Source: Candidatus Saccharimonadales bacterium (GTDB taxonomy: Bacteria > Acidobacteriota > Terriglobia > Acidiferrales > UBA7541). Taken from it: 64,000 bases of DNA. The stretch lies in assembly GCA_035317965.1 (NCBI GenBank), contig DATHFT010000197.1, positions 12,731 to 76,730 on the forward strand, given 5' to 3'. Shown in pieces: positions 2 to 30,530 of this stretch. The notes under the pieces were generated by a model. It had not been told where the DNA came from and ran no database searches. It was given only the letters and a program-made list of their open reading frames with translations. The translations under genes and the position numbers were made by a program. The first letter of the stretch is position 1. The number at the start of each line of letters is the position of its first letter.

Positions 2-1468
2 CGCTGGCGGCGAATTACAAATTCAATTCGCCAAGCAGTCCCCGTAGAGCAAGGGCGTGAAATTGAGTCGCTGCGCCGGGTTGAGCGGTCCGCAGGAGCG
101 CGGCGGCAGATTCCCCTGTTGGTTTCGGACAATTCTCTCGAACCAGGAATATTCGGGATCACCCGGCCTGTTTTGGTGTGGCCGCGCGGCATTTCCGATC
201 GGCTAGAGGATGCTCACCTTAAATCCATCCTGGCGCACGAACTGTGCCATGTGCGACGTCAGGACAATCTAGCGGCCGCAGCGCATATGGCGGTCGAAGC
301 CATCTTCTGGTTTCACCCGCTAGTCTGGTGGCTGGGCCATCGGCTGGTCACTGAGCGCGAACTGGCTTGTGACGAAGCAGTTCTGGAAATGGGTAGCGAG
401 CGCCAGGTCTACGCAGAGAGCATTCTGAAAATCTGCGAATTCTGCGTTGGCTCCCCGCTCAATTGCGTCTCCGGAGTTACCGGCGCCGATTTGAAAAAGC
501 GTATCGCCCACATCATGGCGGAGGATGCCGTGCACGGATTAGGCTTCAGCAAGAGGATTTTGCTCGGGACGGCAGGACTGGCTGCCTTCGGAGTGCCGCT
601 CGTATTCGGTTTGCTGAACGCGACGCAAACTCAGGCGCTGCCGCAAGCACAGACTGCGGATGTCGGGACGGCGGTGCCTGGTTACAAGAGCTCTTATATC
701 AAAATTAATCCGGAAGGCACGGAAGCCTTGCGAACCGGCGGAATTATTCATCAAAAATTGATGATCAATCCCGGTGAGTTCAGCGCGGAGAACGCTTCCC
801 TGCAGGACCTCCTTCGATTCGCCTACGGCGTCGAATACTTTCAGATCGTAGAAGTACCGGCGGCATTCTACGGTAAGTTGTTGGATGTTGAGGCAAAATC
901 CAACAGTTCGATAAAAAACGCGATGCAGAAATTGGACGAAAATCAGCGCCAACTGCAAAGTCAGCGGATGACCCAGGCGATCCTGGAGAACCATTTGCAC
1001 CTGAAAACTCATCGTGAGACAAGAAATCTGCCAACTTTTACCCTAAGCGTGGGTGAATCTGGAAAACTCCAAGAAGTCAAAATCGATTGCGATCGTTCCG
1101 TCCATCAATATGTCATGCAGAAACCAGGCATGCCGCTCACCGCATCGTGCGGAATGGTAGCACCCGGGCTTGGGATTCTTGCTGCAAATACCGTCACGAT
1201 GAAACAATTTGCGAAGTCTCTCTCGAGTATCACTGCCCGAATGGTCGCAGATAAAACCAATCTTGTGGGTAAATATAATATGAACCTGAGATGGAATCCG
1301 GATCCCAATCAATATCCAGAATATGGTGGCCCTCGCCCGCAAGCAGACCCCAATGGCTCGACGCTTGACGTGGCACTGCTGCAACAACTCGGCTTGCAGC
1401 TGGAACCCACGACAGCTCCAGTTGAAGTTCTCGTCGTCGATCACGCCGAATTGCCCGCAGACAACTAG
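2..1468 (+). CDS. BlaR1/MecR1-type M56 peptidase sensor fused to a TIGR03435-like C-terminal domain (5' end outside window)
   Basis: The frame is open from base 2, with no stop before the track's TTG at 119, so the gene starts upstream of the window. HELCH (HExxH) within AHELCHVRRQDNL, plus FWFHPLVWW, are M56 signatures. The C-terminal LQQLGLQLEP..VEVLVVDH tail resembles the soil-associated TIGR03435 family (from memory). Confidence 0.8.
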   Translation, partial: RWRRITNSIRQAVPVEQGREIESLRRVERSAGARRQIPLLVSDNSLEPGIFGITRPVLVWPRGISDRLEDAHLKSILAHELCHVRRQDNLAAAAHMAVEAIFWFHPLVWWLGHRLVTERELACDEAVLEMGSERQVYAESILKICEFCVGSPLNCVSGVTGADLKKRIAHIMAEDAVHGLGFSKRILLGTAGLAAFGVPLVFGLLNATQTQALPQAQTADVGTAVPGYKSSYIKINPEGTEALRTGGIIHQKLMINPGEFSAENASLQDLLRFAYGVEYFQIVEVPAAFYGKLLDVEAKSNSSIKNAMQKLDENQRQLQSQRMTQAILENHLHLKTHRETRNLPTFTLSVGESGKLQEVKIDCDRSVHQYVMQKPGMPLTASCGMVAPGLGILAANTVTMKQFAKSLSSITARMVADKTNLVGKYNMNLRWNPDPNQYPEYGGPRPQADPNGSTLDVALLQQLGLQLEPTTAPVEVLVVDHAELPADN

Positions 1469-1622
1469 CTCGCGGACGGAGGGGGCGAGATGTTTCTCTA
1501 CCTGCGCCCTACTCCTCGTCCCTGCAGGCTTATAACTTCTCGCTTTGCCTGAAAGCCAACCCGGCATAGGATGTGGCGCAACGTGCTCTCAATCGTTGTT
1601 CGTTCCTTCAAGGAGCCTCTCC

Positions 1623-2048
1623 ATGCACATGCACAATCTGAATCTGATCGCCATTTTTGTCGCCGCAGTCTCCACGATGATGGTGGGATTTCTTTGGTAT
1701 TCACCCATTCTTTTTGCGAAGCCCTGGGTGCGCGAAATGGGATACGACCTCAACGACAAGGCAAAAATGGATGAGATGAAGAAGAGCGCCGGTCCCGCCT
1801 ATTTTGGTTCCTTCATCGCCAGCATCGTTTCCGCTTTTGTTCTTGCACTTTTTTTACATGAAATGCGGGTACAAAATCTCGAAATCGGCTTATTGGTGAG
1901 CTTCCATGTCTGGTTGGGATTTGTCGCGACGGTGCAACTAACGGGAGTTCTCTTCATGAAACAGAGCATGAAGTTGTTCGCTATCAATTCGGGATACCAG
2001 TTGGTTTGCTACCTGGTAATGGGCGCAATTCTTACGGCATGGAAATAG
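1623..2048 (+). CDS. DUF1761 family membrane protein
   Basis: The ATG at 1623 gives MHMHNLNLIAIFVAAVSTMMVGFLWYSPILFAKPW, typical of DUF1761. Several hydrophobic helices are present. The upstream part of the track ORF (from 1545) looks non-coding. Confidence 0.7.
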   Translation: MHMHNLNLIAIFVAAVSTMMVGFLWYSPILFAKPWVREMGYDLNDKAKMDEMKKSAGPAYFGSFIASIVSAFVLALFLHEMRVQNLEIGLLVSFHVWLGFVATVQLTGVLFMKQSMKLFAINSGYQLVCYLVMGAILTAWK

Positions 2049-2075
2049 CAGAAGCCGAGCCGACCATTCGACTGG

Positions 2076-3209
2076 CTAATCCGCGCCCGATGCGGCCTGG
2101 GTCTCCTTGTAAAACGGATAGTCAATGTAGCCGCGCGCTTCAAATGTATAGAAAGTGTCGCGCTCCGCTGCGTTTAGCGGCAGCCCAAGCCTAATGCGCT
2201 CCGGCAAATCCGGATTCGCCACGAAATGCCGTCCGAATGCCACCAGATCGGCGTCGCCTTTTTCAACAATCGTCTCGGCCGTGTCCGGTTCAAATCCGCC
2301 GGCCGCGATAATCTTGCCGTTGAACACCTTGCGCAGTTGCTGCGCGGCAATGGGGGCCTGCCCTTCTGCGATCACCACATTGCCTTTCACTCGCGGCTCA
2401 ACAATATGCAAGTACGCCAGTCCGAACCGGTTCAGCGCTCTGGCCACATACGCGAACAATTCTACGGGATTGCTGTCATGCATTCCGTTAAACGTTCCGC
2501 TGGGCGCGATTCGCACGCCCAATCGATCTCCGCCCCACACCGAAGCCAGCGCTTCCACAACTTCCAGAAGAAACCGCGAGCGATTCTCAATCGAACCACC
2601 ATAGGCGTCGGTGCGCTGGTTGGTGCCATCCTGCAAGAATTGATCGATCAAATAACCATTCGCCGCGTGAAGTTCGACGCCATCAAAACCGGCCGCTTTC
2701 GCACGCTCAGCGGCTCTGCGATAGTCCTCGACAATTCTCGGAATCTCCGCAATGTCCAGCGCCCGGGGCGGCGATGGCTTCTGCCATCCACTCGGCGTCG
2801 AGACCACACCCTCAAACGGTTCAACGACCGACGCTGTAACAGGCGTGGATCCGCCGGTGGTAGTGACATGCGAAGCGCGGCCCGTATGCCACAGTTGCGA
2901 GAACATGCGGCCGCCCCTTGCATGAACAGCACTGGTAATTTTCTGCCATCCGGCCACCTGCTCGTCCGAATACATTCCCGGCGCTCCAAACCAGCCGCGC
3001 CCCGAAATCGAAATTGTCGTCGCCTCAGAAATAATAAGTCCGCCATTTGACGTCCGCTGCGCGTAGTACTCCAGCATCAAATCACCGGGAACATCGCCCG
3101 GCTGCAGAGAACGCGATCGCGTCAAGGGCGCCATCACGACTCGATGGCCCAAACTGATCGCTCCGATTTCGACCGGCGTAAAAAGCTTCTGCGCTTTCGA
3201 AACTGCCAT
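2076..3209 (-). CDS. Old Yellow Enzyme family NADH:flavin oxidoreductase (NemA/alkene reductase-like)
   Basis: Carries the OYE-family motifs MAPLTRSR, HTGRASH, GFDGVELHAANGYLIDQFL and AFGRHFVANPDLP. The full-length ORF is 377 aa. Confidence 0.85.
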   Translation of the reverse strand: MAVSKAQKLFTPVEIGAISLGHRVVMAPLTRSRSLQPGDVPGDLMLEYYAQRTSNGGLIISEATTISISGRGWFGAPGMYSDEQVAGWQKITSAVHARGGRMFSQLWHTGRASHVTTTGGSTPVTASVVEPFEGVVSTPSGWQKPSPPRALDIAEIPRIVEDYRRAAERAKAAGFDGVELHAANGYLIDQFLQDGTNQRTDAYGGSIENRSRFLLEVVEALASVWGGDRLGVRIAPSGTFNGMHDSNPVELFAYVARALNRFGLAYLHIVEPRVKGNVVIAEGQAPIAAQQLRKVFNGKIIAAGGFEPDTAETIVEKGDADLVAFGRHFVANPDLPERIRLGLPLNAAERDTFYTFEARGYIDYPFYKETQAASGAD

Positions 3210-3477
3210 AACTTGCTCCTTAACAATCCACTTGCGGGCTTTTGCGATTTTAAGCCGCTTTTATTCTGACCATATGGATGCTCTCGGGAACCCTGTGGAT
3301 ACAATTGCAGTCAATAAGCGGAAAATACAGTACCCACGGCCGGCCACATCCGATGCCAAGAGCCGGTCACTGCCGCTTGGCAGCAAAAACGCAATCTTGA
3401 AATCAGGAGTAAGATAGCCTGCCTGGGTTGCGATTCTGTTCCCGGGCTCGCGCGTTCCCAATGCAGGATATCCATCC

Positions 3478-4374
3478 ATGAATCAATCCGACTCCTGGCC
3501 GGCGCTTCCTCTGGCCGAATGGAAAAATACGTACGCGACTCTGCACATGTGGACGCAAGTTGTGGGCAAAGTGCGGCTTGCGCTCGCCCCGCCGGTCAAT
3601 CATTTCTGGGGCACAGCTCTGTACGTCAGCACACGCGGCTTAACAACTTCTCCCATCCCGTACCCGGGAGGCGTTTTTGATATCACCTTTGACTTCGTCC
3701 AGCACTCTCTGGAAATCACAACGAGCCTCGGCGAAACCAGGTCTTTCGCTCTCATTCCGCGTAGTGTCGCCAAATTCTACGAAAAGCTGATGGACGCCCT
3801 GCATTCACTCGACATTGCAGTCAAAGTCTGGCCCATGCCGGTGGAAGTTCCGAGCCCGGTGCGCTTTACGCAGGACGAAGCCCATGATTCCTACGACCGC
3901 GAGTACGCACACCGCTTCTGGCAAATCCTGGTTAGCGTTGACACTGTGTTGCACGAATTTCGCTCGCGATTTATTGGCAAGGTGAGTCCAGTCCATTTTT
4001 TCTGGGGCAGCTTTGATCTCGCGGTGACGCGGTTTTCTGGCAGACGCGCCCCCGCGCGCGCTGGTGCGGACTTTCTCACCAAAGAAGCCTATTCGCACGA
4101 AGTCATAAGTGTGGGATTTTGGCCGGGCGACGGCGAAATCATCAAAGATGCCGCTTTTTATGCTTACGCGGCGCCGGAGCCGTCTGGATTCAAAGAACGC
4201 CGGGTACAGCCGGAAAAAGCCTTTTACAACTCTGAGAAAAGCGAATTCTTCCTGATGTACGACGACCTCCGGACATCAGAAAATCCCAAGCAGGCGCTGC
4301 TCGACTTTTGTCAGAGCACTTACGAAGCCGGAGCAACTCTCGGAAATTGGGATCGCGCAAATCTGGAACGGTAA
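3478..4374 (+). CDS. DUF5996 family protein
   Basis: The N-terminus WPALPLAEWKNTYATLHMWTQVVGKVRLA is characteristic of DUF5996 (from memory). It is a clean 298-aa ORF. Function is unknown. Confidence 0.65.
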   Translation: MNQSDSWPALPLAEWKNTYATLHMWTQVVGKVRLALAPPVNHFWGTALYVSTRGLTTSPIPYPGGVFDITFDFVQHSLEITTSLGETRSFALIPRSVAKFYEKLMDALHSLDIAVKVWPMPVEVPSPVRFTQDEAHDSYDREYAHRFWQILVSVDTVLHEFRSRFIGKVSPVHFFWGSFDLAVTRFSGRRAPARAGADFLTKEAYSHEVISVGFWPGDGEIIKDAAFYAYAAPEPSGFKERRVQPEKAFYNSEKSEFFLMYDDLRTSENPKQALLDFCQSTYEAGATLGNWDRANLER

Positions 4375-4518
4375 GGCGTTGGCCGCAGACCAGCTTTTGC
4401 GGTTCTGCGGGCTAGCCTCCGGTAATTCCCCTTTTCTCGGAACGATTTTCGCGGTATGAAGACTGTTTGGCGGTCTGCGTCTATACTCATCAGCAGCGTC
4501 GCACCTTGAGGAGCCGTT

Positions 4519-5649
4519 ATGGAGCGCAGTGTTCGCGACATTCTCAACCTTTATAATCCGAACGACCCTCTCGACCAGGCCTGGACGATTCCTTCCCCCT
4601 GGTACTTCGATCCGCGCGTGGGAACCCTCGAAGAGCAGAGCGTCTTCGCGGCAACATGGCAGGTGGTGGGCAGAGCTGATCAAGTACGCGAAAAGGGAAA
4701 CTTTTTCACTGCCGACATTGCCGGTGAGCCGCTTGTTGTCGCCCGTGGTGATGATGGCGAACTGCGCGCGTTCTATAACGTCTGCCGGCATCACGCTGCC
4801 GCCGTTGTTACGGAAAAACAAGGCTGCGCCAAGCAGTTCCGCTGCCCCTATCACGGCTGGACCTACGGGACAGATGGCGCGCTAAAGGGGATGGTCGAAT
4901 TCGATGGTGTCTGCAATTTTGACCGAGGGAAGAATGGTCTGGTTCCCGTTCGTGTCGATATCTGGGAGAATTTCGTATTCGTCAACCTTGATGGCCACGC
5001 ATTGCCGCTCCGGGATTTTCTCGGCGCAGTCCCCGGCATCGTTGCGCCGCTGCAACTCACCCAGAAATTGCACTATTTCGACCGCCGCATCTACACGCTG
5101 AATTGCAACTGGAAGGTTTACGTCGACAACTATCTCGACGGCGGCTACCACGTGCCGCACGCGCACAAAGGACTCAGCAGCGTCATCGAATACACAAAAT
5201 ACACGATCGAGAATTTCGACCGGGCCTGTTTACAATCCAGCCCGCTGTCCTCCGACACCAGCTCGGAAGCAGGCGTCGCCGCCACGCGCCAGGGTCGCGC
5301 GTTTTACCTGTGGATTTATCCGAACTTCATGATCAACGCCTATGAAGGGGTAATGGACACCAACCTGGTTCTACCCATTGGCGTCAACAAGTGCGCCGTA
5401 ATCTTCGACTATTATTTCGGCGACGTCAGCCAATCCGCCGAGGCTCACAACAAAGAAAGCATCCGCATTAGTGAAAAAGTTCAGGATGAAGACGAAGCCA
5501 TTTGCGATGCCGTGCAACGCGGACTTGGCTCGCGGGCTTACGTGGCTGGCCGCTTGTCCGTGCGGCGCGAAGCCGGCGAGCATCTCTTCCACCGACTACT
5601 CCACAGCGATCTTACCGGTGCCCTCGAGCAACCCGCCGCAGCCGACTAG
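4519..5649 (+). CDS. Rieske [2Fe-2S] ring-hydroxylating oxygenase alpha subunit (choline monooxygenase-like)
   Basis: Has the CRHH...CPYHGW Rieske motif and the DNYLDGGYHVPHAH mononuclear-iron motif. A GAGGAG sits 5 nt upstream of the ATG. Confidence 0.85.
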   Translation: MERSVRDILNLYNPNDPLDQAWTIPSPWYFDPRVGTLEEQSVFAATWQVVGRADQVREKGNFFTADIAGEPLVVARGDDGELRAFYNVCRHHAAAVVTEKQGCAKQFRCPYHGWTYGTDGALKGMVEFDGVCNFDRGKNGLVPVRVDIWENFVFVNLDGHALPLRDFLGAVPGIVAPLQLTQKLHYFDRRIYTLNCNWKVYVDNYLDGGYHVPHAHKGLSSVIEYTKYTIENFDRACLQSSPLSSDTSSEAGVAATRQGRAFYLWIYPNFMINAYEGVMDTNLVLPIGVNKCAVIFDYYFGDVSQSAEAHNKESIRISEKVQDEDEAICDAVQRGLGSRAYVAGRLSVRREAGEHLFHRLLHSDLTGALEQPAAAD

Positions 5650-13223: not shown

Positions 13224-15632
<2,409 letters not shown>

Positions 15633-15859
15633 TCAGCGCAGTCTGGGACCCGGCTCACCCTGTGGGCCGTAGTCGGTTCAAGTTTGCAGTGGCCCCTCTC
15701 TGCCGCAGGTTGTAGAAAGTCTGGTTTGCCCCACTCTGTCGTTTGTTTTACCCGCCAGTTTGGAGCGCCACCCCGTAAACAATCCGCATCTTCGTTGGCT
15801 GTTTCGCAGTCACCCAAGTAGTAAGGTCAATTCTTACAATCAAAACTAGCTAAGGATAT

Positions 15860-17155
<1,296 letters not shown>

Positions 17156-17392: not shown

Positions 17393-18721
17393 TTACTCCG
17401 CGGCTTCCTCCACCGCAGCGATGTAATCCAGTACCCGCTCCGACCATCCGTCGATATGCGTCCAACCATCCCCATAACTGATCCCCGGCTTGTACGGCGC
17501 CACGTTCACCACGTAGGCCTTTTCCGTCCACGCCGGCAGGATTCCGTCATGCGATTGTTCGTCCGTAATCACGATCAACCGGTCGAGTTCCTGCCATCCT
17601 TTCCGTTCGTGAAGTTCCGACAAAGCCCGCTTCAAATACGTCCCAGAGTGCGCCTGAGAATTCTCAATCGCATCGCGCAACGCAAATCCTCGGCGCGCCG
17701 GCACCTCCACACACTTGTCTGAAAACGTTGCCGCCGAAAACTCCTCCGCCTTTTCGCGGAGCAGAATCGCCAGCCCGCACGCCGCATCCACGCGCGTGGT
17801 CTCGCCCTTATTCGAAAGCCGGGAATTCATCGACCCGGATACGTCAACGAGCAGTCCCGTCGATCCCGCCAGCTTCCGAAGTCCGGCGATCCCCGCCAGC
17901 ATCGCCTCTTCGATGGCCTCCTCAAGCTTCGGAGCGTGCCGCGCCGCCGTCACAAATCGAAACGGCAACGCGCGCGCCACTCCTTTCCTGAGCCGGTCAC
18001 GGATCAGTTGCGGATCCACTCCCGCTGCCAGCATCAGACGCAGGTTCCGCAGGGTTGCCAATCCGCCCAGCTTGCACTCGCGCAGCAGACGTTCGAAGTT
18101 CTCGCGCTTGTCCTTCCCTGCGGACAAGACAACCTCCCAAGTGTCGGGAGATTCGAGCGTGTTCTCAACGAGCTTCTTCCAAACGGCTTCCTGCGCTGCA
18201 TCTTTCGGCTTCGCATGGCACAAAAACAGCACGTCGCGGAGCTTCACTTTCGCATCGCGGTTGTACTTCGCCAGCTGGTACGCGTCGAACTTCTGGAACG
18301 CACGCGCCAACCCGCGCTTTACTCCCGCCGAAAGCGGCTGCTTTTTGTCCTTCCAGTACAACGAAACGAACTCACCAAGCTCGTCCGCGCGCTGGATCAC
18401 CTGCTCAAGCGTTTGCGCCACCAGCGACCCCGTCCCTTTACGGCGCGCCAGTTCGCGTACCAGGAAGAGTGGAGCATGGCGCAGTTGCATCGCGTCGCGC
18501 GCTTCTTGTGCCACAGCGACCACCGTTTCTGGTTTGTTCTCTGCCACGAGTCTTGCAATTCGTTCCGCAATGTCGCTTCCCTTTTCGTAAAACGCGTCTT
18601 CCCACAACAAACACGTCGCCACCGTGCGCCGCAATTCGCGCTTCACGTCCACGCGCTGCGCCACTGCACCTTCATGCGTCCGCAACGGAAGCGTCTTCTT
18701 CCAGACATTCATCTTCGCCAT
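17393..18721 (-). CDS. rsr: Ro60-related protein (TROVE domain plus vWA domain)
   Basis: N-terminal THEGAVAQ...LLWEDAFYEKG...LRHAPLFLVRELAR matches bacterial TROVE/Rsr proteins. The C-terminal vWA has a DVSGSM (DxSxS) MIDAS motif. The ATG at 18721 is preceded by GGAGA. Confidence 0.85.
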   Translation of the reverse strand: MAKMNVWKKTLPLRTHEGAVAQRVDVKRELRRTVATCLLWEDAFYEKGSDIAERIARLVAENKPETVVAVAQEARDAMQLRHAPLFLVRELARRKGTGSLVAQTLEQVIQRADELGEFVSLYWKDKKQPLSAGVKRGLARAFQKFDAYQLAKYNRDAKVKLRDVLFLCHAKPKDAAQEAVWKKLVENTLESPDTWEVVLSAGKDKRENFERLLRECKLGGLATLRNLRLMLAAGVDPQLIRDRLRKGVARALPFRFVTAARHAPKLEEAIEEAMLAGIAGLRKLAGSTGLLVDVSGSMNSRLSNKGETTRVDAACGLAILLREKAEEFSAATFSDKCVEVPARRGFALRDAIENSQAHSGTYLKRALSELHERKGWQELDRLIVITDEQSHDGILPAWTEKAYVVNVAPYKPGISYGDGWTHIDGWSERVLDYIAAVEEAAE

Positions 18722-18768
18722 CACTGCACTTCTCCTTTCCGCCGCACGTGATCGAACCGTGCAGCTGC

Positions 18769-18777
18769 TTTCAGAAA
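18769..18777. repeat. TTTCAGAAA palindrome (copy 3 of 3 in the rsr upstream tract)
   Basis: Perfect TTTC-A-GAAA palindrome about 45 nt upstream of the rsr start. Related copies are at 19058-19068 and 19495-19509. Confidence 0.3.
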
Positions 18778-18919
18778 TCGCCGGACGGGAACTTCAGGCG
18801 CACTGCCATTCGGGGGCAGCCCGCACTGCTGGACCGGGCTGGCTGCCAACCGCTCCCTTCCCCGGCGTTCACCAGGGTGCTCTGCCGCAGTACGACTCAG
18901 TCCACCACACCGAAACTAC

Positions 18920-19055
18920 TTGCGGCGGGAATCGGCGGCGAGAGTCTTTCTCCGCTGCTCTGCCACTGAGCTACAGTGACTTTCGTCACCGGCAGGACTC
19001 GAACCTGCGACCAACGGTTTTCGTCGATGTAACTCACGCCTTCACCACGCCGCAA
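18920..19055 (-). ncRNA. YrlA-class bacterial Y RNA candidate with a circularly permuted tRNA-like domain
   Basis: The minus strand at 19012-18957 reads variable-like GGTC, T arm GCAGG-TTCGAGT-CCTGC, 7-bp acceptor-like helix CGGTGAC/GTCACTG closed by GAAA, then TA, then D arm GCTC-AGTGGCA-GAGC. The flanks can pair: TTGCGGCG at 19055-19048 with CGCCGCAA at 18927-18920. It lies about 200 nt upstream of rsr on the same strand. The exact ends are not determined. Confidence 0.7.
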
Positions 19056-19057
19056 AC

Positions 19058-19068
19058 TTTTCAGAAAA
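19058..19068. repeat. TTTTCAGAAAA palindrome (copy 2 of 3)
   Basis: Perfect TTTTC-A-GAAAA palindrome immediately 5' (minus-strand sense) of the Y RNA candidate's outer stem. Confidence 0.3.
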
Positions 19069-19328
19069 ACTCTTCTTTCACTCCTTCGTTGCTGGACTGC
19101 TTCTTTGTTTCGCGCTGTAGATACACCCCAACCCTTACAGTGAGCGCCGCGCTCACGTTCACCAGCTTTTCCGGGAGGAACCAGCGTCTACGGTCTCGGG
19201 GTTTCGGACCCCAGCCTTGCGGCTTCATCCAGCGAAGTATCCGTAAACTACGCCATCCCAGGAAATACCCTGTAGCGAAGTCAATGCATCGAAACGACTT
19301 GGGCGGTTTTGTTCGTTACGGTCGCGCG

Positions 19329-19457
19329 AAAAAAGCAGTGCACACGACGTTGCCGCCTTGCTTCAATCCGAATTGGCTTTTGTCGTCGTGTCTCATTCTC
19401 TGCTCTTCTCGCTCAGTGAGGACCTGCACAAAAATGCAGCAGGCGTACGACTGAGGT
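19329..19457 (-). ncRNA. Promoter-proximal structured RNA candidate (function unknown)
   Basis: It lies downstream of the TTGACA promoter. Stem CTCAGT/ACTGAG (19455-19450 with 19417-19412) encloses hairpin CCTGC...GCAGG (19443-19423). An 8-bp stem ACACGACG/CGTCGTGT (19391-19384 with 19349-19342) follows, then T6 at 19334-19329. The call is based on structure only. Confidence 0.25.
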
Positions 19458-19463
19458 AATCTG

Positions 19464-19492
19464 AAAGTAAACGGAGATCGCAAATCTGTCAA
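19464..19492 (-). promoter_or_regulatory. Sigma70-like promoter at the head of the rsr upstream tract
   Basis: The minus strand has TTGACA (19492-19487), a 17-nt spacer, then TACTTT (19469-19464). The -35 is perfect and the -10 is weak. It starts about 70 nt after the stop of the upstream MBL gene. Confidence 0.35.
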
Positions 19493-19494
19493 GC

Positions 19495-19509
19495 TTTTTC
19501 TCAGAAAAA
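19495..19509. repeat. TTTTTCT-C-AGAAAAA palindrome (copy 1 of 3)
   Basis: Perfect 15-nt palindrome directly abutting the -35 element of the candidate promoter. Confidence 0.3.
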
Positions 19510-19559
19510 CAGTAAAATTGGCCCATTTTTCGTATAACTTGTTAATTTTCAAGTACCTG

Positions 19560-20588
19560 TCATTTTTTTTCGTAGGTTTTACTAAATCCGTTTCGCGAAT
19601 TCAGCAAGGTGAACGTACCGTCGGCCGACGCCGTCGCTTTGATAAATTTTCCTTCGCACTTTTCCTCCACATTCGCAATCAACTCTTCCTTCGAGTTGTG
19701 TTCCTTACCCGCCGCAATCGCGTAGTGCAGTTGCCATACTTCGGGATTTCCTGGAGCATCATGCGCGATCTGCCAGGCTGCCGCGTCGCCACCTTTCTTC
19801 GCGCCCGTTTCCATTACGCTCGCCCGGGGATGCAGTGCATGTACCAGCGCTTTCGGATTCGAAGTATCTCCGCCATGGTGCTCCATCAAAAATAGATCCA
19901 CAGTCCCGACCAGATTGTTCGGACATACCAACTCCACTTCTTTCTTCTTGGTCAAATCTCCCAGATCGAGAAACCTGAATTTTCCAAATGTCACTAGTAT
20001 TCCCAGCGACTGGGCATTCTCACTCGGGTCAACTTCGGCCGCCGGCTCTGACCCGCACAACGGGTTGGCCTGTCCGGCCCCCGGCAACGCCGCGGAAATG
20101 TGCTGCCCTGCCGCGGTCATTACTTCAACCTTCATTCCTTTTGTGGGAATAAAATCGCCCGGCTTCACCGTCATCTGCCGATCCCCGGCCACCTTCTTGT
20201 ACGCGGCAAATATCTCCGGAGTATTTCCATCCGTCTCCACGCTCGCCCCATGATCGACAAATTTCCCAATCTTGATCTTCTCCGCCAGCTGCGGCACACC
20301 CCCGGTATGATCCATGTGATAGTGCGTCAGCACCACGTAGTCGATTTGCGTAAGCCCCGCATCCTTGGCCGCCGCCACAATCCGATCCGCATCCCTCCCG
20401 CCATTCCCCGGCCAGCCCGTATCCACTAGAATCGACTCGCCCGTCGGGCTCACAATTAAGGTCGACTGGCCGCCCTCCACGTCGATAAAATATATCTTTA
20501 ACTCCTTACCTGCGGCGGCCGATGTTCCCGCAAAAAGAATCAGCAACATCGTAAGGGTCTTGCGCATAAGTTTGCTGGATCGCTGCAT
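19560..20588 (-). CDS. Secreted MBL-fold metallo-hydrolase
   Basis: Signal-peptide-like N-terminus (MLLILFAGTSAAAG) and the HYHMDHTGG (HxHxDH) motif. Confidence 0.8.
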   Translation of the reverse strand: MQRSSKLMRKTLTMLLILFAGTSAAAGKELKIYFIDVEGGQSTLIVSPTGESILVDTGWPGNGGRDADRIVAAAKDAGLTQIDYVVLTHYHMDHTGGVPQLAEKIKIGKFVDHGASVETDGNTPEIFAAYKKVAGDRQMTVKPGDFIPTKGMKVEVMTAAGQHISAALPGAGQANPLCGSEPAAEVDPSENAQSLGILVTFGKFRFLDLGDLTKKKEVELVCPNNLVGTVDLFLMEHHGGDTSNPKALVHALHPRASVMETGAKKGGDAAAWQIAHDAPGNPEVWQLHYAIAAGKEHNSKEELIANVEEKCEGKFIKATASADGTFTLLNSRNGFSKTYEKK

Positions 20589-21554: not shown

Positions 21555-23381
21555 TCAGTTTTTGGCTCTCTCAGCGATCCACTGCTTGACGTCCCGTTCC
21601 AACACGCTGAGAGGAACCGCGCCATTTGCCAAAACCTCATCATGAAACCCGCGTTCATCAAACTTCGTGCCCAGCGATTTCTCCGCCTCGGTTCGCAGCT
21701 CACGGATCTTTAGCTGCCCCAGCTTGTACGCCAATGCCTGGCCCGGCCACACAATGTACCGGTCCACTTCGACGGTAATATCCTGATCTGTCTTCCCCGT
21801 GTTGTCTTTGAAAAACTGCAGCGCCTGCTCGCGCGTCCAGCCCATCGAGTGCATCCCGGTGTCCACCACCAGGCGTACCGCGCGCCACATCTCATACGAC
21901 AACTGTCCAAACTTGGAGTACGGATCTTTGTACAATCCCAACTCTTCTCCCAAACTTTCCGAATACAGCGCCCAGCCCTCGACGTAGGCCGAGTAGCTGT
22001 TGTTTTTGCGGAACTCCGGAACGCCTTCCAGCTCCTGCGCGAGCGAAATCTGCAAGTGGTGTCCCGGCACTGCTTCGTGGAGAGAAAGCGCGTCCATCTC
22101 CCACTTCGGCCGCGCGTGCAAATTGAAGGTATTCACGAAATAGCAACCTGGCCGTCCCACACTTGGCGCTCCCGGCTGATAGTAAGCCGTGGTCTGCGAG
22201 GGCGCCTTGAAGTCGGGAATTTTGCAAACCCCATACGTCAGCCGTGGCAATTTTCCAAACAAATGAGCCAGTCCCGGATCCACCGTCTTCGCAATAACCT
22301 TATATCCATTCACCAACTCTTCTGGCTGCTCATAATAAAAGCGAGCATCGGTCCGCAGAAATTCCGTGAAGTCGTGAAAGCTTCCTTTAAATCCGGCGGT
22401 AGCAATCACCTTATCCATTTCCGCGCGAATCCGCTTCACTTCCGACAATCCAATTTCGTGAATCTCCTTCGGCGTCAAGGTGGTCGTCGTCTGCCATCGC
22501 ACGTGGTAGGCATAAGCCGCGGCCCCATTTGGCAAAGCCGTCGCCGCAATCGATTCGCGACACGCCGGCAAATACGTCTTTACCACGTACTCATGCGCTT
22601 TTTGAAACGCCGGCGCCACGCTGTCCGTAAAAACGTTCTTCGCCCGCTCGGTCAGCCGCGCTTTTTCCGCTTCGGGAAATCCAGACGGGAATTGCGTGAA
22701 TTGCTGCAATAGCGGACTCGCCAGGGGGTCCGCTGGCGTCAAATCCGCAAGCTGCTTCGGCACATCGCGCAGCATCAGCTTCGGCGGCGTGTAACCTCTT
22801 TGCAATCCTTCCTGCATCAGTACGATATTCTGCTCGACCCATTTCGGCAAGGCTTCCAGACGCGCCAGAATATCTTCATAGTCCGCCACTGTCCGATTCT
22901 GCATGTTGGAAAGCGTATCCGCCGCACCTGTCTGAATTCCTTCCATCTGATTCATCGGCATCCACAAATTGCGCGGAACCACGCCGCGAATCGGCATCGG
23001 ATCATCGCCGTACGGCAAGCCCTCCTGCGCCGTCTCCAGAAGCTCCAGATACAGGTCGTAGTCCAACCGGTCACGTTGCGGCAGGGATTCGCGCGAAATC
23101 GATTTCAAATTGGACAAACTTTCCGCCAGATACTTTCTCCGCGCCGCAATTCCCTCCGGCGAATCGTCCGTCCACTTCCGGTTTTGCCCTGGATAACCGA
23201 CGGAGGTCGCCACATCCGGATACTCGACCATCCACTGTTTCCAATCGGCGTCCAGGTATGCGTGAAATTTCTGCGCCGCTTCCTCACCGGGCTTGCTGGC
23301 GCTTTGTGCAAGCACGAGCATTGGAAGAAAAAACATCCCACTTCCTGTCAAAGCCAAAACCACAAACACTGTGCGTATCAA
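21555..23381 (-). CDS. DUF885 family protein (secreted)
   Basis: Signal peptide MIRTVFVVLALTGSGMFFLPMLVLAQS. Contains LHEAVPGHHLQ and YVEGWALY, typical of DUF885. The start overlaps the cmk stop by 4 nt. Confidence 0.8.
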   Translation of the reverse strand: MIRTVFVVLALTGSGMFFLPMLVLAQSASKPGEEAAQKFHAYLDADWKQWMVEYPDVATSVGYPGQNRKWTDDSPEGIAARRKYLAESLSNLKSISRESLPQRDRLDYDLYLELLETAQEGLPYGDDPMPIRGVVPRNLWMPMNQMEGIQTGAADTLSNMQNRTVADYEDILARLEALPKWVEQNIVLMQEGLQRGYTPPKLMLRDVPKQLADLTPADPLASPLLQQFTQFPSGFPEAEKARLTERAKNVFTDSVAPAFQKAHEYVVKTYLPACRESIAATALPNGAAAYAYHVRWQTTTTLTPKEIHEIGLSEVKRIRAEMDKVIATAGFKGSFHDFTEFLRTDARFYYEQPEELVNGYKVIAKTVDPGLAHLFGKLPRLTYGVCKIPDFKAPSQTTAYYQPGAPSVGRPGCYFVNTFNLHARPKWEMDALSLHEAVPGHHLQISLAQELEGVPEFRKNNSYSAYVEGWALYSESLGEELGLYKDPYSKFGQLSYEMWRAVRLVVDTGMHSMGWTREQALQFFKDNTGKTDQDITVEVDRYIVWPGQALAYKLGQLKIRELRTEAEKSLGTKFDERGFHDEVLANGAVPLSVLERDVKQWIAERAKN

Positions 23382-29102: not shown

Positions 29103-30530
29103 CTACACAGCTTTGAGAAAGTCCAGCAGTTGCGCTTCGGTCAATTTTTGCTGCGTGCCGTCGGACAGGGTCTTCAGCGTCCACTGCCCTTCTTTGATTT
29201 CGTTCTCGCCCATAATGAGTGCATGTTTGGCGTTCATTTTACTGGCACGCTCCAGGGCTTTGCCGAATTTCAATTCTGTCGGCGGAAGCTCTACGCTGAT
29301 TCCGGCTTCCCGCAGTTTTTGCGCGCCGCGTACTGCTGTTTCATAGGCGCCTTGGCCCATCCAAGCGATGAACACACTCGGCCCCTGGGCGACGGGAGCT
29401 TTGCCTGCTTCCTGCAGGGAAAGAATCAGACGATCTTCTCCAATGGCGAAGCCAATCCCTTTTGTGGGCGGGCCGCCGAGGAGCTCGACCAGGCCATCGT
29501 AGCGGCCGCCACCGCAGACAGCATTTTGCGAGCCAAGTCCCTTGGCGGTGATTTCAAACGTGGTGCGCATGTAATAGTCGAGGCCCCGGACCAGCCGCCA
29601 GTTTTCCTGATATTTCACTCCGCGCAAATCCAGATTGTGTTTTACGGCGGCGTAGTGCGCGGCGCAGGCCGGGCAGAGATGCTCGGCGATGCGCGGCAGT
29701 TTTTCAATAATGGCTTGCTCGTGCTCAAGTTTCGAGTCGAGCACGCGCAATGGGTTCGTTTCAATGCGGCGCTGGGAGTCCGCGCCGAGATGGTCTTTCA
29801 CTTTGCGGAGTTCTTCGCGCAGCAACTCGACATACTTCGGGCGACAGTCCGGGGCGCTGTGACCGATGGAATTGATGCTCAGCTCGGTGCCTTCTAGTTG
29901 CAAGCGATCAAAAAATGTCATCACCATTTCGATGACTTCGGCGTCGATGGCTGGCGCATCGGTGCCACCGAGAACTTCGGCGCCGATTTGATAGAACTGG
30001 CGGTATCTTCCCTTCTGCGGGCGTTCGCGCCGAAACATCGGCCCGCGGTAATACAACTTCACTGGCTGCGGCAGTTGGCCCATGCTGTGCTCGATATAAG
30101 CGCGGCACACGGAAGCCGTGGCCTCGGGACGCAAACTAATGGAAATTGCTTCGCCATCTGCAGCCGCGGTTTGCGATGAACGCGGATCGGGCCGATCGGA
30201 GAATGTGTACATTTCTTTTGAGACTATATCGGTGTCTCCGCCAACGGCCCGTGCAAATAATTCGGTTGGCTCAAAAATTGGAACCCGGATTTCGCCGAAT
30301 CCGAAAGTGGCGAACACTTCATGGGCGGCTTGCTCGACGTGATTCCACAATTGCGTTTCGGACGGAAGAAGATCACGGGTTCCGCGTATGGACTGAAACT
30401 GCTTGTGCGTTGCGCCCATGCGGGATTCGGCAGGTGACTCTTGCCCTTTTTGTTTGGCAGCGGCTTTGGCGCGATTGATTTCTTCCCACTGGGCGCGCTT
30501 GGCAGCTTTTTCCTGCTCGCGATCGCTCAC
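29103..30530 (-). CDS. hisS: Histidine--tRNA ligase (with Lys/Ala-rich N-terminal extension)
   Basis: Contains IRGTRDLLP, the class II core (MFRRERPQKGRYRQFYQIG) and GGGRYDGL. The GTG at 30530 overlaps the upstream stop (GTGA) and has GAGGAA upstream. An ATG at 30419 is an alternative start. Confidence 0.9.
   Translation of the reverse strand: MSDREQEKAAKRAQWEEINRAKAAAKQKGQESPAESRMGATHKQFQSIRGTRDLLPSETQLWNHVEQAAHEVFATFGFGEIRVPIFEPTELFARAVGGDTDIVSKEMYTFSDRPDPRSSQTAAADGEAISISLRPEATASVCRAYIEHSMGQLPQPVKLYYRGPMFRRERPQKGRYRQFYQIGAEVLGGTDAPAIDAEVIEMVMTFFDRLQLEGTELSINSIGHSAPDCRPKYVELLREELRKVKDHLGADSQRRIETNPLRVLDSKLEHEQAIIEKLPRIAEHLCPACAAHYAAVKHNLDLRGVKYQENWRLVRGLDYYMRTTFEITAKGLGSQNAVCGGGRYDGLVELLGGPPTKGIGFAIGEDRLILSLQEAGKAPVAQGPSVFIAWMGQGAYETAVRGAQKLREAGISVELPPTELKFGKALERASKMNAKHALIMGENEIKEGQWTLKTLSDGTQQKLTEAQLLDFLKAV

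What the first reader, a model, noticed from the sequence alone, without database searches (positions are those of the whole stretch)
18725..19559. The 835-nt gene-free tract upstream of rsr looks like an array of structured RNA modules
No convincing ORF fills this tract, yet it is full of same-strand (minus) repeats and hairpins.

1. A TTGACA-17-TACTTT promoter lies at 19492-19464.
2. A promoter-proximal module follows (nested stems 19455-19412, an 8-bp stem 19391/19342, then T6 at 19334-19329). It could be a separate RNA of about 125 nt.
3. There are four copies of TGGTGRA: plus-strand TYCACCA at 19158-19164, 19041-19047, 18901-18907 and 18868-18874. They share extended similarity: AGCTGGTGAA-CGTGAG, GGCGTGGTGAAGGCGTGAGTTAC and GGTGTGGTGGA-CTGAGTCGTAC. 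From memory, the second resembles the 5' strand of human Y1 RNA (GGCUGGUCCGAAGGUAGUGAGUUAUC).
4. Several direct repeats occur: AGTCGTAC (19452-19445 and 18897-18890), GTAGTTT(A)CGG (19251-19241 and 18919-18910) and ACTTCGCT (19281-19274 and 19238-19231).
5. Downstream of the tRNA-like module, GTACTGC can pair with either of two GCAGTGC copies. Hairpins CCCTGG-TGAACG-CCGGGG and GGCAGCC...GGCTGCC could form a second Y-like RNA, comparable to the YrlB partner in Salmonella.
6. A T-loop-like hairpin GCTGCACG-GTTCGATCA-CGTGCGGC (18765-18741) sits just before the rsr RBS.

The number and boundaries of the RNAs cannot be settled by eye.
Basis: partly seen in the sequence, partly recalled or inferred. 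Interest (0 to 1): 0.65.

Follow-up and report, generated by a model that had tools for sequence, protein, structure and literature searches.

The report
Y-RNA gene array upstream of rsr
The "empty" 835 bases upstream of the Ro60-like gene rsr in this soil acidobacterium hold a conserved promoter, a structured leader with a tiny reading frame and three tandem Y-RNA genes, one of them tRNA-like: a shortened copy of an array that has up to six Y RNAs in related genomes.

Summary

On the minus strand the tract contains:
1. An invariant promoter, TTGACA-17-TACTTT (19492-19464).
2. A conserved leader of about 170 nt, "block A". Its T6 run is one strand of a helix, not a terminator. It also holds a 26-codon ORF whose reading frame is conserved but whose peptide is not.
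3. Three Y-RNA-like modules that share one closing stem signature:
   - Y-C (19055-18920), a YrlA-type tRNA mimic.
   - Y-D (18915-18780), a degenerate copy.

Evidence:
- A covariance model built only from relatives scores Y-C at 127.8 bits. Rfam's YrlA model gives 48.3 bits, below its cutoff of 69.
- Covariation across 48 relatives' copies is strong.
- About 45 Candidatus Acidoferrum genomes carry an ordered array of up to six modules (B-C1-C2-D-E-F).
- Soil metatranscriptome contigs begin just after the predicted start site. One 912-nt contig runs from the leader through four modules.

Rsr binding, processing into separate RNAs and the leader's role are inferred, not shown.

Verdict: a new variant of the known bacterial Y-RNA/rsr arrangement, of moderate interest. 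The frame-conserved leader ORF and the D-loop-permuted tRNA-like module in relatives are the new parts.

The parts
19536..19555 (-). Imperfect palindrome TACTTG-N8-CAAGTT just after the neighbouring gene's stop codon. Possible operator. The conserved cassette begins here.
   Evidence: Conserved in the 40-locus alignment. Single copy in the window; a match with up to 2 mismatches is not rare by chance, so the case rests on conservation. The upstream neighbouring gene itself is not conserved (0 of 94 loci). Function is inferred only.
19464..19492 (-). Sigma-70-type promoter: TTGACA (19492-19487), 17-nt spacer, TACTTT (19469-19464). Inferred start site near 19457.
   Evidence: Unique in the window, 0 of 100 shuffles. 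Both hexamers are invariant in 40 relatives while the spacer varies. In relative L011, RNA-library contigs give depth 0 upstream and begin 13-50 nt after the predicted start in 7 runs. The generic promoter scan did not call it because the -10 hexamer matches TATAAT at only 3 of 6 positions.
19285..19458 (-). Leader 'block A'. P1 is 19455-19450/19417-19412. P2 is a variable hairpin, 19443-19439/19427-19423. P3 is 19411-19400/19338-19327 and includes the T6 run. P4 is 19391-19384/19349-19342. An invariant tail CCGCCCAAGUCGUUUCGAU lies at 19306-19288.
   Evidence: 75-81% nucleotide identity in about 40 genome loci and at least 120 metagenome loci. The window fold has z = -4.5. 95% of cells are paired and 6 pairs show double changes, 0 of 500 shuffles. 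No Rfam match. Highest RNA depth of the locus in relatives.
19316..19396 (-). 26-codon ORF inside P3/P4 of the leader (ATG 19396-19394, TAA 19318-19316; MRHDDKSQFGLKQGGNVVCTAFFARP). Probably a regulatory upstream ORF (uORF).
   Evidence: 26 codons in 114 of 136 unique copies; start codon is always ATG, TTG or GTG. Every length variant measured from start codon to a conserved anchor is a multiple of 3 (66/69/72/75 nt). A few copies that fell outside that measurement are frameshifted. The window copy carries a -1 and a +1 indel that restore the frame. There is no codon periodicity and pN/pS is 0.83 against 0.88 and 0.85 in the other frames. No Pfam hit.
19169..19263 (-). Y-B, a Y-RNA-like module. 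Stem 1 is CUGGGA/UCCCGG with a bulged U (19255) and a GG/CC step. Stem 2 is 8 bp. Inside are a small hairpin and a degenerate T-arm-like hairpin (GGGGUCCGAAACCCC).
   Evidence: R1 33.8 bits, E 3e-6; R2 27.9 bits. In the 36-sequence alignment, 20 consensus pairs, 4 with compensatory changes. First module of the array in relatives. Covered by RNA-library contigs in relatives.
19056..19168 (-). Spacer between Y-B and Y-C, holding the hairpin GUGAGCGC/GCGCUCAC (19156-19140) and one TGGTGAA copy (19164-19158).
   Evidence: No separate BLASTN match to most relatives. No covariance-model hit. Treated as a linker.
18920..19055 (-). Y-C, a YrlA-type Y RNA. Stem 1 is UGCGGCG/CGCCGCA with bulged U19047 and a GG/CC step. 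Motif GGUGAAG is at 19046-19040. Stem 2 follows, then UUAC (19032-19029). T arm 19008-18992. 7-bp acceptor-like hairpin with a GAAA loop, 18991-18974. D arm 18971-18957.
   Evidence: R1, built from 48 relatives' copies without the window, gives 127.8 bits, E 4.5e-29. Rfam YrlA RF02553 gives 48.3 bits, E 2e-9, below its gathering score of 69. Structure: 96.5% of cells paired; 15 pairs and 140 cells with double changes; 0 of 500 shuffles. Fold z = -4.26.
18780..18915 (-). Y-D, a degenerate Y-like module. 5' strand UCGGUG-U-GG-UGGA (18913-18901). Stem 2 is CGUACUGC/GCAGUGCG (18894-18887/18806-18799). Anticodon-arm-like hairpin 18877-18860. GC-rich hairpin 18847-18815. 3' strand GUUCC-CGUCCG (18792-18782).
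   Evidence: R2, built from 26 relatives' D modules without the window, gives 23.1 bits, E 1.3e-5. R1 gives only 4.9 bits, against 39-71 bits for relatives' D modules. Stem 1 has one C-C mismatch, read directly from the sequence. BLASTN homology to the 5' half of relatives' D modules. The T arm, the acceptor-like arm and the UAGCUCA element seen in relatives are missing.
18741..18765 (-). Hairpin in the rsr 5' UTR: GCUGCACG, a 9-nt loop, CGUGCGGC. It sits immediately before the Shine-Dalgarno sequence GGAAAGGAG (18740-18732).
   Evidence: -14.5 kcal/mol, z = -2.6. Its sequence is not conserved, but many relatives have some hairpin at this position. Role inferred: protection of the rsr mRNA 5' end, or control of SD access.
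17393..18721 (-). rsr, the Ro60 orthologue (TROVE plus Ro60 vWA domains). Start ATG at 18721. An intrinsic terminator-like site follows at 17366-17341.
   Evidence: Pfam TROVE 3.5e-13 and vWA_Ro60 1.9e-6. Homologues of 81-92% identity are named 60 kDa SS-A/Ro ribonucleoprotein or TROVE domain protein. Between the promoter and the end of rsr the scan lists no terminator-like site upstream of the coding region, and only two weak ones (5-6 bp stems) inside it.

Best explanation
The tract is the non-coding front end of an rsr operon. RNA polymerase starts at the conserved promoter (19492-19464). It transcribes a structured leader (block A) that holds a short, probably translated 26-codon ORF. It then transcribes three tandem Y-RNA genes (Y-B, the YrlA-type tRNA mimic Y-C and a decayed Y-D) and finally rsr, all as one precursor.

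Each module closes with the same signature: a 6-7-bp stem, a bulged U, a GG/CC step, and an internal loop carrying GGYGNRG on the 5' side and G(N)3-4RUUCC on the 3' side. A second stem and a (Y)UAC element follow. This signature is the lineage's version of the Ro60/Rsr-binding module of Y RNAs.

After nucleolytic excision, Rsr is expected to bind and stabilise these stems. The differing apical domains would then recruit different partners: tRNA-like in Y-C, T-arm-like in Y-B, a hairpin cluster in Y-D.

**Shown:** homology, covariation, promoter conservation, transcription and multi-module RNA contigs in relatives.
**Inferred:** Rsr binding, processing into discrete RNAs, the partners, and the leader ORF's regulatory role.

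The window's locus is a reduced version of the family array B-C1-C2-D-E-F plus an 86-aa ORF. It has three modules and 740 nt between the -10 hexamer and rsr.
For: - **Context.** The rsr gene with TROVE and vWA_Ro60 domains lies directly downstream on the same strand.
- **Y-C.** Rfam YrlA E 2e-9. R1, built without the window, gives 127.8 bits. Across relatives' copies 96.5% of cells are paired, and 15 pairs and 140 cells show compensatory changes, above every shuffle and every slid control.
- **Y-B and Y-D.** Models trained on other modules recognise them. Their alignments with relatives show covariation.
- **Family picture.** 205 R1 hits at E < 0.01 in 52 related loci, all on the rsr strand. 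The module order is fixed.
- **Promoter.** Both hexamers are invariant while the spacer varies.
- **RNA.** Seven soil metatranscriptome runs give zero depth upstream of the predicted start site. Contigs cover the leader and modules, and one 912-nt contig joins the leader to four modules. A 214-nt contig at about 95% identity to the window covers 19442-19230, across T6.
- **Precedent.** M. smegmatis YrlA and YrlB are cut from one precursor upstream of rsr. D. radiodurans Yrn1 and Yrn2 are polycistronic with a tRNA. GNCGAAN0-1G and YUAY are the conserved YrlA elements (PMC4201824; bioRxiv 10.1101/312249).
Against: - No RNA data exist for this exact organism. Only DNA runs hold the window at 94% or more of sampled words, and the one RNA run found for the tract holds 6% of them.
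- Contigs cannot show discrete processed ends and may contain some DNA.
- Rsr binding is untested.
- The motif has U where the published GNCGAA has C.
- Rfam's score is below its gathering threshold (48.3 against 69).
- Y-D scores poorly, has a mismatch in its closing stem and has lost its tRNA-like half, so it may be non-functional.
- The folds of Y-B and Y-D on their own are no better than shuffles (z = -0.8 and -1.1).
- The leader ORF shows no protein-level constraint and no conserved Shine-Dalgarno sequence.
Confidence: 0.8

Rival explanations
1. The tract is only a long, structured 5' UTR of rsr that controls rsr in cis. The Y-like folds act while still part of the mRNA, for example as Rsr autoregulatory decoys, and are never released as separate RNAs.
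For: The scan lists no terminator-like site between the promoter and the rsr coding region. Multi-module RNA contigs exist. A hairpin abuts the rsr Shine-Dalgarno sequence. Block A also occurs directly upstream of rsr fragments or of a small ORF with no Y modules, as a cis leader would.
Against: RNA depth over the leader and Y-B is roughly 3-25 times that over the downstream modules in relatives, which fits differential stability or processing. Every characterised bacterial rsr locus yields discrete Y RNAs from a precursor (PMC4201824). Each module has its own self-contained closing stem, and module number varies from 1 to 6 between genomes without loss of rsr.
Confidence: 0.1
2. The promoter-proximal element is an independent small RNA of about 125 nt ended by the T6 run. 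The Y RNAs would then need read-through or a second promoter.
For: In the window a strong hairpin (z = -4.5) ends near a T6 run. Block A has the highest RNA depth in relatives.
Against: T6 is the 3' strand of helix P3, pairing with GAGAAGAG, and is not a tail after a stem. The U-run is not conserved; relatives have UUGUUC or UUAUUC. The terminator scan does not call it. RNA-library contigs run from block A into Y-B and beyond. No second conserved promoter was seen.
Confidence: 0.07
3. Block A is conserved because it encodes a functional 26-residue protein, and the RNA structure is incidental.
For: Start codon, stop codon and length are conserved. All 7-8 independent indels that keep the anchor are multiples of 3.
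Against: There is no third-position bias (entropy 17.25, 16.99 and 17.9 across the three codon positions). pN/pS is 0.83, about the same as in the wrong frames. The window copy and the L017-type copies read a different peptide through internal frameshifts. Conserved nucleotides coincide with helices P3 and P4, which show compensatory changes. No family match.
Confidence: 0.05
4. The tRNA-like pieces are decaying remnants of a former tRNA gene cluster next to rsr and have no present function.
For: Proteobacterial relatives L047 and L049 have real tRNA arrays around rsr. Y-D in the window is visibly degenerate.
Against: ARAGORN finds no tRNA in the window. The T-acceptor-D order is the permuted YrlA order, not a tRNA order. 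Strong compensatory covariation across about 45 species argues for purifying selection on the fold. The modules are transcribed.
Confidence: 0.03

Closest known systems
YrlA (Rfam RF02553), the bacterial tRNA-like Y RNAs of Salmonella Typhimurium, M. smegmatis and over 250 other species (Chen et al. 2014, PMC4201824)
   Same: Lies on the rsr strand within 200 nt of rsr. Has a T arm, an acceptor-like hairpin and a D arm in that order, a conserved UA-containing YUAY element and a basal stem carrying a GNCGAA-like motif. The acceptor-like stem is 7 bp, as in M. smegmatis.
   Different: Scores 48.3 bits against a gathering score of 69. Rfam aligns it by deleting the model's 7-bp stem 2. The motif is GGUGAAG (U for C) and sits in an internal loop above an extra 7-bp stem with a bulged U, rather than inside the basal helix. 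In relatives it is one of up to three YrlA-type paralogues in the same array.
YrlB and Yrn2, the second, non-tRNA-like Y RNAs of Salmonella, M. smegmatis and D. radiodurans
   Same: Additional Y RNAs encoded beside YrlA upstream of rsr and made from one precursor. M. smegmatis YrlB also keeps a possible T arm, as Y-B does.
   Different: No sequence homology is known. The paper reports that YrlB cannot be found outside Salmonella by BLAST. Here Y-B and Y-D share a clear stem signature with the YrlA-type module, and their position in the array is conserved across about 45 species.
Metazoan Y RNAs (Rfam RF00019) and their Ro60-binding bulged helix
   Same: A closing helix with a single bulged pyrimidine. 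The 5'-strand motif (UGGUGAAGG here, UGGUCCGA in animals) followed by a second helix. The likeness to the human Y1, Y4 and Y5 5' strands is recalled from memory only.
   Different: Rfam reported no Y_RNA match at E <= 10. Animal Y RNAs are made by polymerase III from single genes. They have no tRNA-like domain.
Leader peptides and regulatory uORFs of bacterial operons (attenuators, erm-type leaders)
   Same: A short ORF at a fixed position in a structured leader, with the frame conserved.
   Different: No terminator/antiterminator pair was identified, there are no diagnostic codon runs and no conserved Shine-Dalgarno sequence, and the peptide is unconstrained. What it would control is a non-coding RNA array.
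Circularly permuted tRNA genes and tRNA-like elements
   Same: YrlA-type modules are tRNA-like domains opened at the anticodon stem. The D module of relatives reads as a tRNA-like domain opened in the D loop: GAGC, then an anticodon-like arm, a T arm, an acceptor hairpin, then UAGCUCA.
   Different: They are not processed into tRNAs as far as is known. The D-stem pairing in module D never varies, so it is untested. The window's own Y-D has lost most of this domain.

Membership tests
YrlA (RF02553) | Encoded within 4 kb of rsr and on the same strand | tested here: met
   Y-C (19055-18920, minus) ends 199 nt upstream of the rsr ATG at 18721 (minus).
YrlA (RF02553) | T-arm-like and D-arm-like stem-loops separated by an acceptor-like stem-loop | tested here: met
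   T arm 19008-18992, acceptor-like arm 18991-18974, D arm 18971-18957 in the Rfam and R1 alignments. These helices covary in relatives.
YrlA (RF02553) | GNCGAAN0-1G motif near the 5' end (proposed Rsr contact) | tested here: inconclusive
   The window has GGUGAAG (19046-19040), with U in place of C. Several relatives have an exact GGCGAAG at the same column. A second GACGAA at 19025-19020 lacks the closing G and is the one Rfam aligned.
YrlA (RF02553) | Conserved YUAY / UA element between the Rsr-binding module and the tRNA-like domain | tested here: met
   UUAC at 19032-19029. Its T, A and C are at least 90% conserved in the 48-copy alignment. The element's role is described in bioRxiv 10.1101/312249.
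YrlA (RF02553) | Score at or above Rfam's gathering threshold (69 bits) | tested here: not met
   48.3 bits in the window and 37-40 bits in relatives. No hit in gathering mode.
YrlA (RF02553) | Bound and stabilised by Rsr; modified by tRNA enzymes (TruB, DusA) | not testable with these tools
   Needs Rsr immunoprecipitation or gel shift, and modification mapping.
Metazoan Y RNA (RF00019) | Match to the Y_RNA covariance model | tested here: not met
   The cmscan of 18500-19800 at E <= 10 returned only YrlA.
tRNA gene | Canonical cloverleaf found by ARAGORN or the Rfam tRNA model | tested here: not met
   ARAGORN finds 0 genes in the window. No RF00005 hit in the tract.
Intrinsic terminator (for T6 at 19334-19329) | GC-rich hairpin followed immediately by a conserved U-run, with transcripts ending there | tested here: not met
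   The scan did not call it. The U-run is a helix strand and is not conserved. RNA-library contigs read through it.
Leader-peptide or uORF regulatory leader | Short ORF with conserved start, stop and frame at a fixed place in the leader | tested here: met
   26 codons in 114 of 136 unique copies, with ATG, TTG or GTG starts only. Length variants are 66, 69, 72 and 75 nt.
Leader-peptide or uORF regulatory leader | Evidence of translation (Shine-Dalgarno sequence, ribosome footprints) and a structure switch coupled to it | tested here: inconclusive
   The purine-rich GAAGAG / GAAAAG upstream of the start is not a conserved Shine-Dalgarno sequence and is paired in P3. No alternative pairing was identified. 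No ribosome footprint data are available.
Small protein gene | Purifying selection on the amino-acid sequence | tested here: not met
   Entropy by codon position is 17.25, 16.99 and 17.9. pN/pS is 0.83 against 0.88 and 0.85 in the other frames.

The most novel reading that the evidence does not exclude
The Acidoferrum-type rsr cassette may be a new regulatory and RNP design with three new elements:

1. A leader in which a translated 26-codon uORF is nested in a conserved hairpin. Only the uORF's frame and stop position are under selection. It would couple ribosome status to expression of a Y-RNA array and rsr.
2. Up to six distinct Y-RNA paralogues that share one Rsr-binding signature but carry different effector domains. 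One of these is a previously undescribed tRNA-like domain permuted at the D loop, with an anticodon-like arm.
3. A conserved, unannotated 86-aa partner protein.

The window carries a pared-down version: the leader plus three modules.
Probability: 0.3. Interest if true: 0.65.

Novelty: new variant of a known kind. Interest (0 to 1): 0.5.

Why it matters
Bacterial Y RNAs have been studied experimentally in only three species, and only the YrlA class can be found by homology. The partner Y RNAs (YrlB, Yrn2) have had no recognisable signature.

This lineage is an abundant group of soil Acidobacteriota. It offers a natural series of one to six Y-RNA paralogues that share an explicit stem signature. 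That makes three things directly testable: what Rsr recognises, why a cell keeps several Y RNAs, and how the apical domains differ.

Rfam misses all of these loci at its curated threshold, so they are probably unannotated in hundreds of metagenome-assembled genomes. The tandem copies can even trigger a false tRNA call.

The frame-conserved, sequence-free leader ORF upstream of a non-coding RNA array is an unusual regulatory arrangement and worth a direct test.

Tried and rejected
- **Rfam, gathering mode, whole window:** no hits.
- **ARAGORN:** no tRNA.
- **Generic promoter and terminator scan:** missed the real promoter and called nothing in the tract apart from an AT-rich site at 19552-19525.
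- **Single-sequence fold of the whole tract:** not informative about module boundaries.
- **Short direct repeats** (AGTCGTAC, GTAGTTT(A)CGG, ACTTCGCT): these are 8-11-nt two-copy families of the kind expected by chance. They are not conserved as repeats in relatives.
- **The 78-aa ORF at 19552-19316:** rejected, because it spans the promoter.
- **Block A as a protein gene:** rejected on codon statistics.
- **Pseudoknot in block A** (loop AAGUCGRAAC / CAAGGCG pairing with the invariant tail): only weakly supported. PKa shows no covariation. PKb shows a few compensatory changes that the slid controls match equally well. It is kept as a lead only.
- **P4 alternative register** (CACGA/UCGUG): fits worse than GAGAC/GUCUC.
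- **Other Y-stem or model hits in the window** (29517-29412 and 23149-23076): both lie inside long ORFs and were taken as chance.
- **RNA runs for the window itself:** only one was found, holding 6% of the sampled words.
- **Chen et al. supplementary tables,** which list the number of YrlA copies per genome: not held as text.
- **The 86-aa ORF of relatives:** no Pfam, NCBIfam or PDB sequence match.
- **Literature:** no paper in the library mentions both YrlA and Acidobacteria.
Full report
**Setting.** The tract 18725-19559 lies on the minus strand. Upstream is a metallo-beta-lactamase-fold gene (19560-20588). Downstream is a 443-aa gene with TROVE and Ro60-type vWA domains, that is, rsr. The closest Rsr homologues, at 81-92% identity, come from soil metagenome-assembled genomes named Candidatus Acidoferrum or Acidobacteria. 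Rfam in gathering mode finds nothing in the 64-kb window, and ARAGORN finds no tRNA. In E-value mode the only Rfam hit in the tract is YrlA (RF02553) at 19027-18932, with 48.3 bits against a gathering score of 69 and E 2e-9. That alignment deletes the model's middle stem.

**Checking the observation.**
- The promoter string TTGACA-N17-TACTTT is at 19492-19464 and is unique in the window.
Four in 835 nt of one strand is about 25 times the window's average density.
- The short direct repeats are two-copy 8-11-mers at chance level.

**Relatives.** A scan of one genome per species with the Rsr protein returned 52 loci. BLASTN of the tract against them shows three conserved blocks and the start of rsr:
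- Block A, 19558-19285, at 75-81% identity. It begins right after the neighbouring gene's stop codon.
- Block B, 19264-19169.
- Block C, 19063-18903. This block is tandemly duplicated in many relatives.

The distance from the -10 hexamer to rsr has a median of 1582 nt in relatives (range 958-2785), against 740 nt in the window.

**The shared stem signature.** I searched for a six-base stem, then U, then GG on the 5' side, paired with UUCC plus the complementary six bases on the 3' side. Relatives show an ordered array of up to six modules, which I call B, C1, C2, D, E and F. The window has B and C by the strict pattern, and D if one mismatch is allowed (checked against the sequence). All modules share this layout:
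- Stem 1 of 6-7 bp.
- A bulged U.
- A GG/CC step.
- An internal loop with GGYGNRG on the 5' side and G(N)3-4RUUCC on the 3' side.
- Stem 2 of 7-8 bp.
- A (Y)UAC-UUCG/AUCG element.

This is seen. Some relatives have an exact GGCGAAG, which is the published GNCGAAN0-1G motif. Chen et al. proposed that motif as the Rsr contact, and UAC matches their conserved YUAY (PMC4201824; bioRxiv 10.1101/312249).

**Module C (Y-C, 19055-18920).** I aligned 48 C1 and C2 copies from relatives and left the window out. My hand-drawn structure has stem 1, stem 2, a short junction stem, a T arm, a 7-bp acceptor-like hairpin and a D arm.
- 96.5% of cells are paired.
- 15 pairs and 140 cells show double changes.
- This is above all 500 shuffles and far above the slid controls.
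- One example: stem 1 switches as a block from GCGGCG/CGCCGC to GCAGAG/CUCUGC.

The covariance model built from that alignment (R1) scores the window's Y-C at 127.8 bits, E 4.5e-29. Y-C is therefore a YrlA-type Y RNA that Rfam's model under-scores.

**Module B (Y-B, 19263-19169).** R1 finds it through its stems at 33.8 bits, E 3e-6. In a 36-sequence alignment the consensus fold has 20 pairs, 4 of them with compensatory changes. In relatives its apical part holds a T-arm-like hairpin (GGGUUCGAAUCCC). The window has a diverged GGGGUCCGAAACCCC.

**Module D (Y-D, 18915-18780).** In relatives D has its own architecture: GAGC, then a covarying anticodon-arm-like hairpin, a T arm, a covarying acceptor-like hairpin, then UAGCUCA. 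This reads as a tRNA-like domain opened in the D loop. 95.3% of cells are paired and 14 pairs show double changes. The proposed D stem never varies, so it is untested.

A model built from 26 relatives' D modules (R2) finds the window's copy at 23.1 bits, E 1.3e-5. R1 gives it only 4.9 bits. The window's copy keeps the 5' motif, the anticodon-like hairpin and the 3' UUCC closure. A GC-rich hairpin has replaced the T, acceptor-like and D-5' parts, and stem 1 has a mismatch. It may be a relic.

- Two are true stem motifs, those of Y-C and Y-D.
- One is the loop of Y-D's internal hairpin.
- One sits in the B-C spacer, which did not align to most relatives.

**Block A.** The hexamers TTGACA and TACTTT are invariant in 40 loci while the spacer between them varies. 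Downstream come these elements:
- P1 (CUCAGU/ACUGAG) enclosing a hypervariable but always paired hairpin, P2.
- P3, a long helix.
- P4.
- An invariant tail, CCGCYUAAGUCGUUUCGAU.

The window's block A folds with z = -4.5. On the alignment 95% of cells are paired and six pairs show double changes. The clearest is a G-C to A-U switch in P3, seen in 6 of 40 sequences and 9 of 143. A loop-to-tail pseudoknot is possible but weakly supported.

**The small ORF in block A.** Inside P3 and P4 lies a 26-codon ORF (19396-19316). I scanned metagenome contigs with two invariant block A strings and collected at least 120 more loci.
- Among 136 unique copies in which the ORF could be located, 114 have exactly 26 codons. 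Every start codon is ATG, TTG or GTG.
- From the start codon to a conserved anchor the length is 66, 69, 72 or 75 nt and nothing else. That amounts to seven or eight independent in-frame duplications or deletions.
- The copies that break the frame are the seven-sequence L017-type group (a single +1 event), one short deletion (L172), and the window's own copy. The window's copy carries a -1 and a +1 indel that restore the frame.
- Substitutions show no codon periodicity, and pN/pS is 0.83 against 0.88 and 0.85 in the other frames.

So the frame is kept but the peptide is not. I read this as a regulatory uORF. This step is inference.

**Variant cassettes.** The upstream neighbouring gene is not conserved (0 of 94 loci), so the conserved cassette starts at the palindrome at 19555-19536. 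Some loci carry block A directly in front of an rsr fragment, or in front of a conserved 86-aa ORF, with no Y modules. That fits block A being a leader rather than a Y RNA.

**RNA evidence.** All of it comes from relatives and from assembled contigs of RNA libraries.
- A sediment metatranscriptome contig at about 95% identity to the window covers 19442-19230. It runs across T6 from block A into Y-B.
- On relative L011 the predicted start site is near 994. Seven soil metatranscriptome runs give zero depth over the 200-400 nt upstream of it.
- Contigs then begin at about 1008-1047. Depth is highest over block A and Y-B (up to 322 and 123 in run X25), lower over the later modules, and continues into rsr.
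- One 912-nt contig joins block A, Y-B, Y-C1 and Y-E.

This supports the promoter and co-transcription. Contigs cannot show processed ends.

**Mechanism.** One promoter drives the leader, the Y-RNA array and rsr. The scan lists no terminator-like site before the rsr coding region, and the strong one follows rsr at 17366-17341. By analogy with M. smegmatis and D. radiodurans, the precursor is cut into Y RNAs whose closing stems are bound and protected by Rsr, and whose apical domains recruit partners. Y-C's 7-bp acceptor-like stem makes it a candidate RNase P substrate. Translation of the uORF would open P3 and P4, and what that controls is unknown. Binding, processing and regulation are all inferred.

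**Comparison with known families.**
- Y-C meets the structural definition of YrlA but not Rfam's score threshold, and it carries a variant motif.
- Y-B and Y-D work like the "second" Y RNAs (YrlB, Yrn2) but share no known homology with them.
- The metazoan Y_RNA model does not match.
- Block A matches no Rfam family, in the window or in relatives.

**Verdict.** The finding is real. It is a new variant of the known rsr/Y-RNA arrangement. The unusual features are the size of the paralogue array in relatives, the D-loop-permuted module, and a frame-conserved, sequence-free ORF in the leader.

Noticed in passing
L002:3068-3328 and homologues in 38 of 52 genome loci; absent from the window: A conserved 86-aa ORF (MKEVMSLEGPVLKV...LKIVIPEWLAGMLRIEEEDLV) lies between the Y-RNA array and rsr in most relatives, and in 50 of 120 metagenome loci. 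It has no Pfam, NCBIfam or PDB sequence match. It is a possible unknown partner of the Rsr/Y-RNA system. The window's cassette has lost it.
   Followed up: partly
L047 and L049 (Steroidobacteraceae-type MAGs), about 1100-5470: In these proteobacterial relatives (Rsr 52-53% identical), rsr and one YrlA-like RNA sit inside an array of about 15-18 genes that pass Rfam's tRNA threshold.
   Followed up: no
L092, L113, L147, L167, L110, L154 and about 20 more metagenome loci; also L077, L086, L112, L120: Block A with its promoter also occurs directly upstream of a Shine-Dalgarno sequence plus a short rsr fragment (residues about 160-214), with no Y modules. It also occurs upstream of the 86-aa ORF followed by decayed rsr remnants. 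These look like truncated or decaying paralogous cassettes.
   Followed up: partly
window 19536-19555: An AT-rich imperfect palindrome TACTTG-N8-CAAGTT lies about 45 nt upstream of the -35 hexamer. It is conserved in most relatives even though the upstream gene differs. It is a candidate operator. There is only one copy in the window.
   Followed up: partly
L002:2220-2356, L025:2226-2356: Rfam's tRNA model scores above its gathering threshold (44 and 37 bits against 29) on a stretch made of the D arm of one YrlA-like gene and the T arm of the next. Automated annotation could therefore call a false tRNA across tandem Y-RNA genes.
   Followed up: no
window 23076-23149 (minus) and 29412-29517 (minus): A weak R1 hit (18.8 bits, E 0.014; UUGCGGCGCGGAGAA...AAUCCCUGCCGCAA) lies inside the DUF885 ORF. 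A strict-pattern stem match lies inside a 475-aa ORF. Both were taken as chance.
   Followed up: partly
L011:2435-3430 and similar ORFs of 285-346 aa in L004, L009, L016, L027, L043: Some relatives carry an extra ORF of about 330 aa, with no Pfam match, between the Y-RNA array and rsr. RNA-library contigs cover it.
   Followed up: no
window 13224-17155: Lon protease (13224-15632, plus) and Rho (15860-17155, plus) lie just downstream of rsr and converge on it. Their relevance to the long untranslated Y-RNA transcript is only speculation.
   Followed up: no
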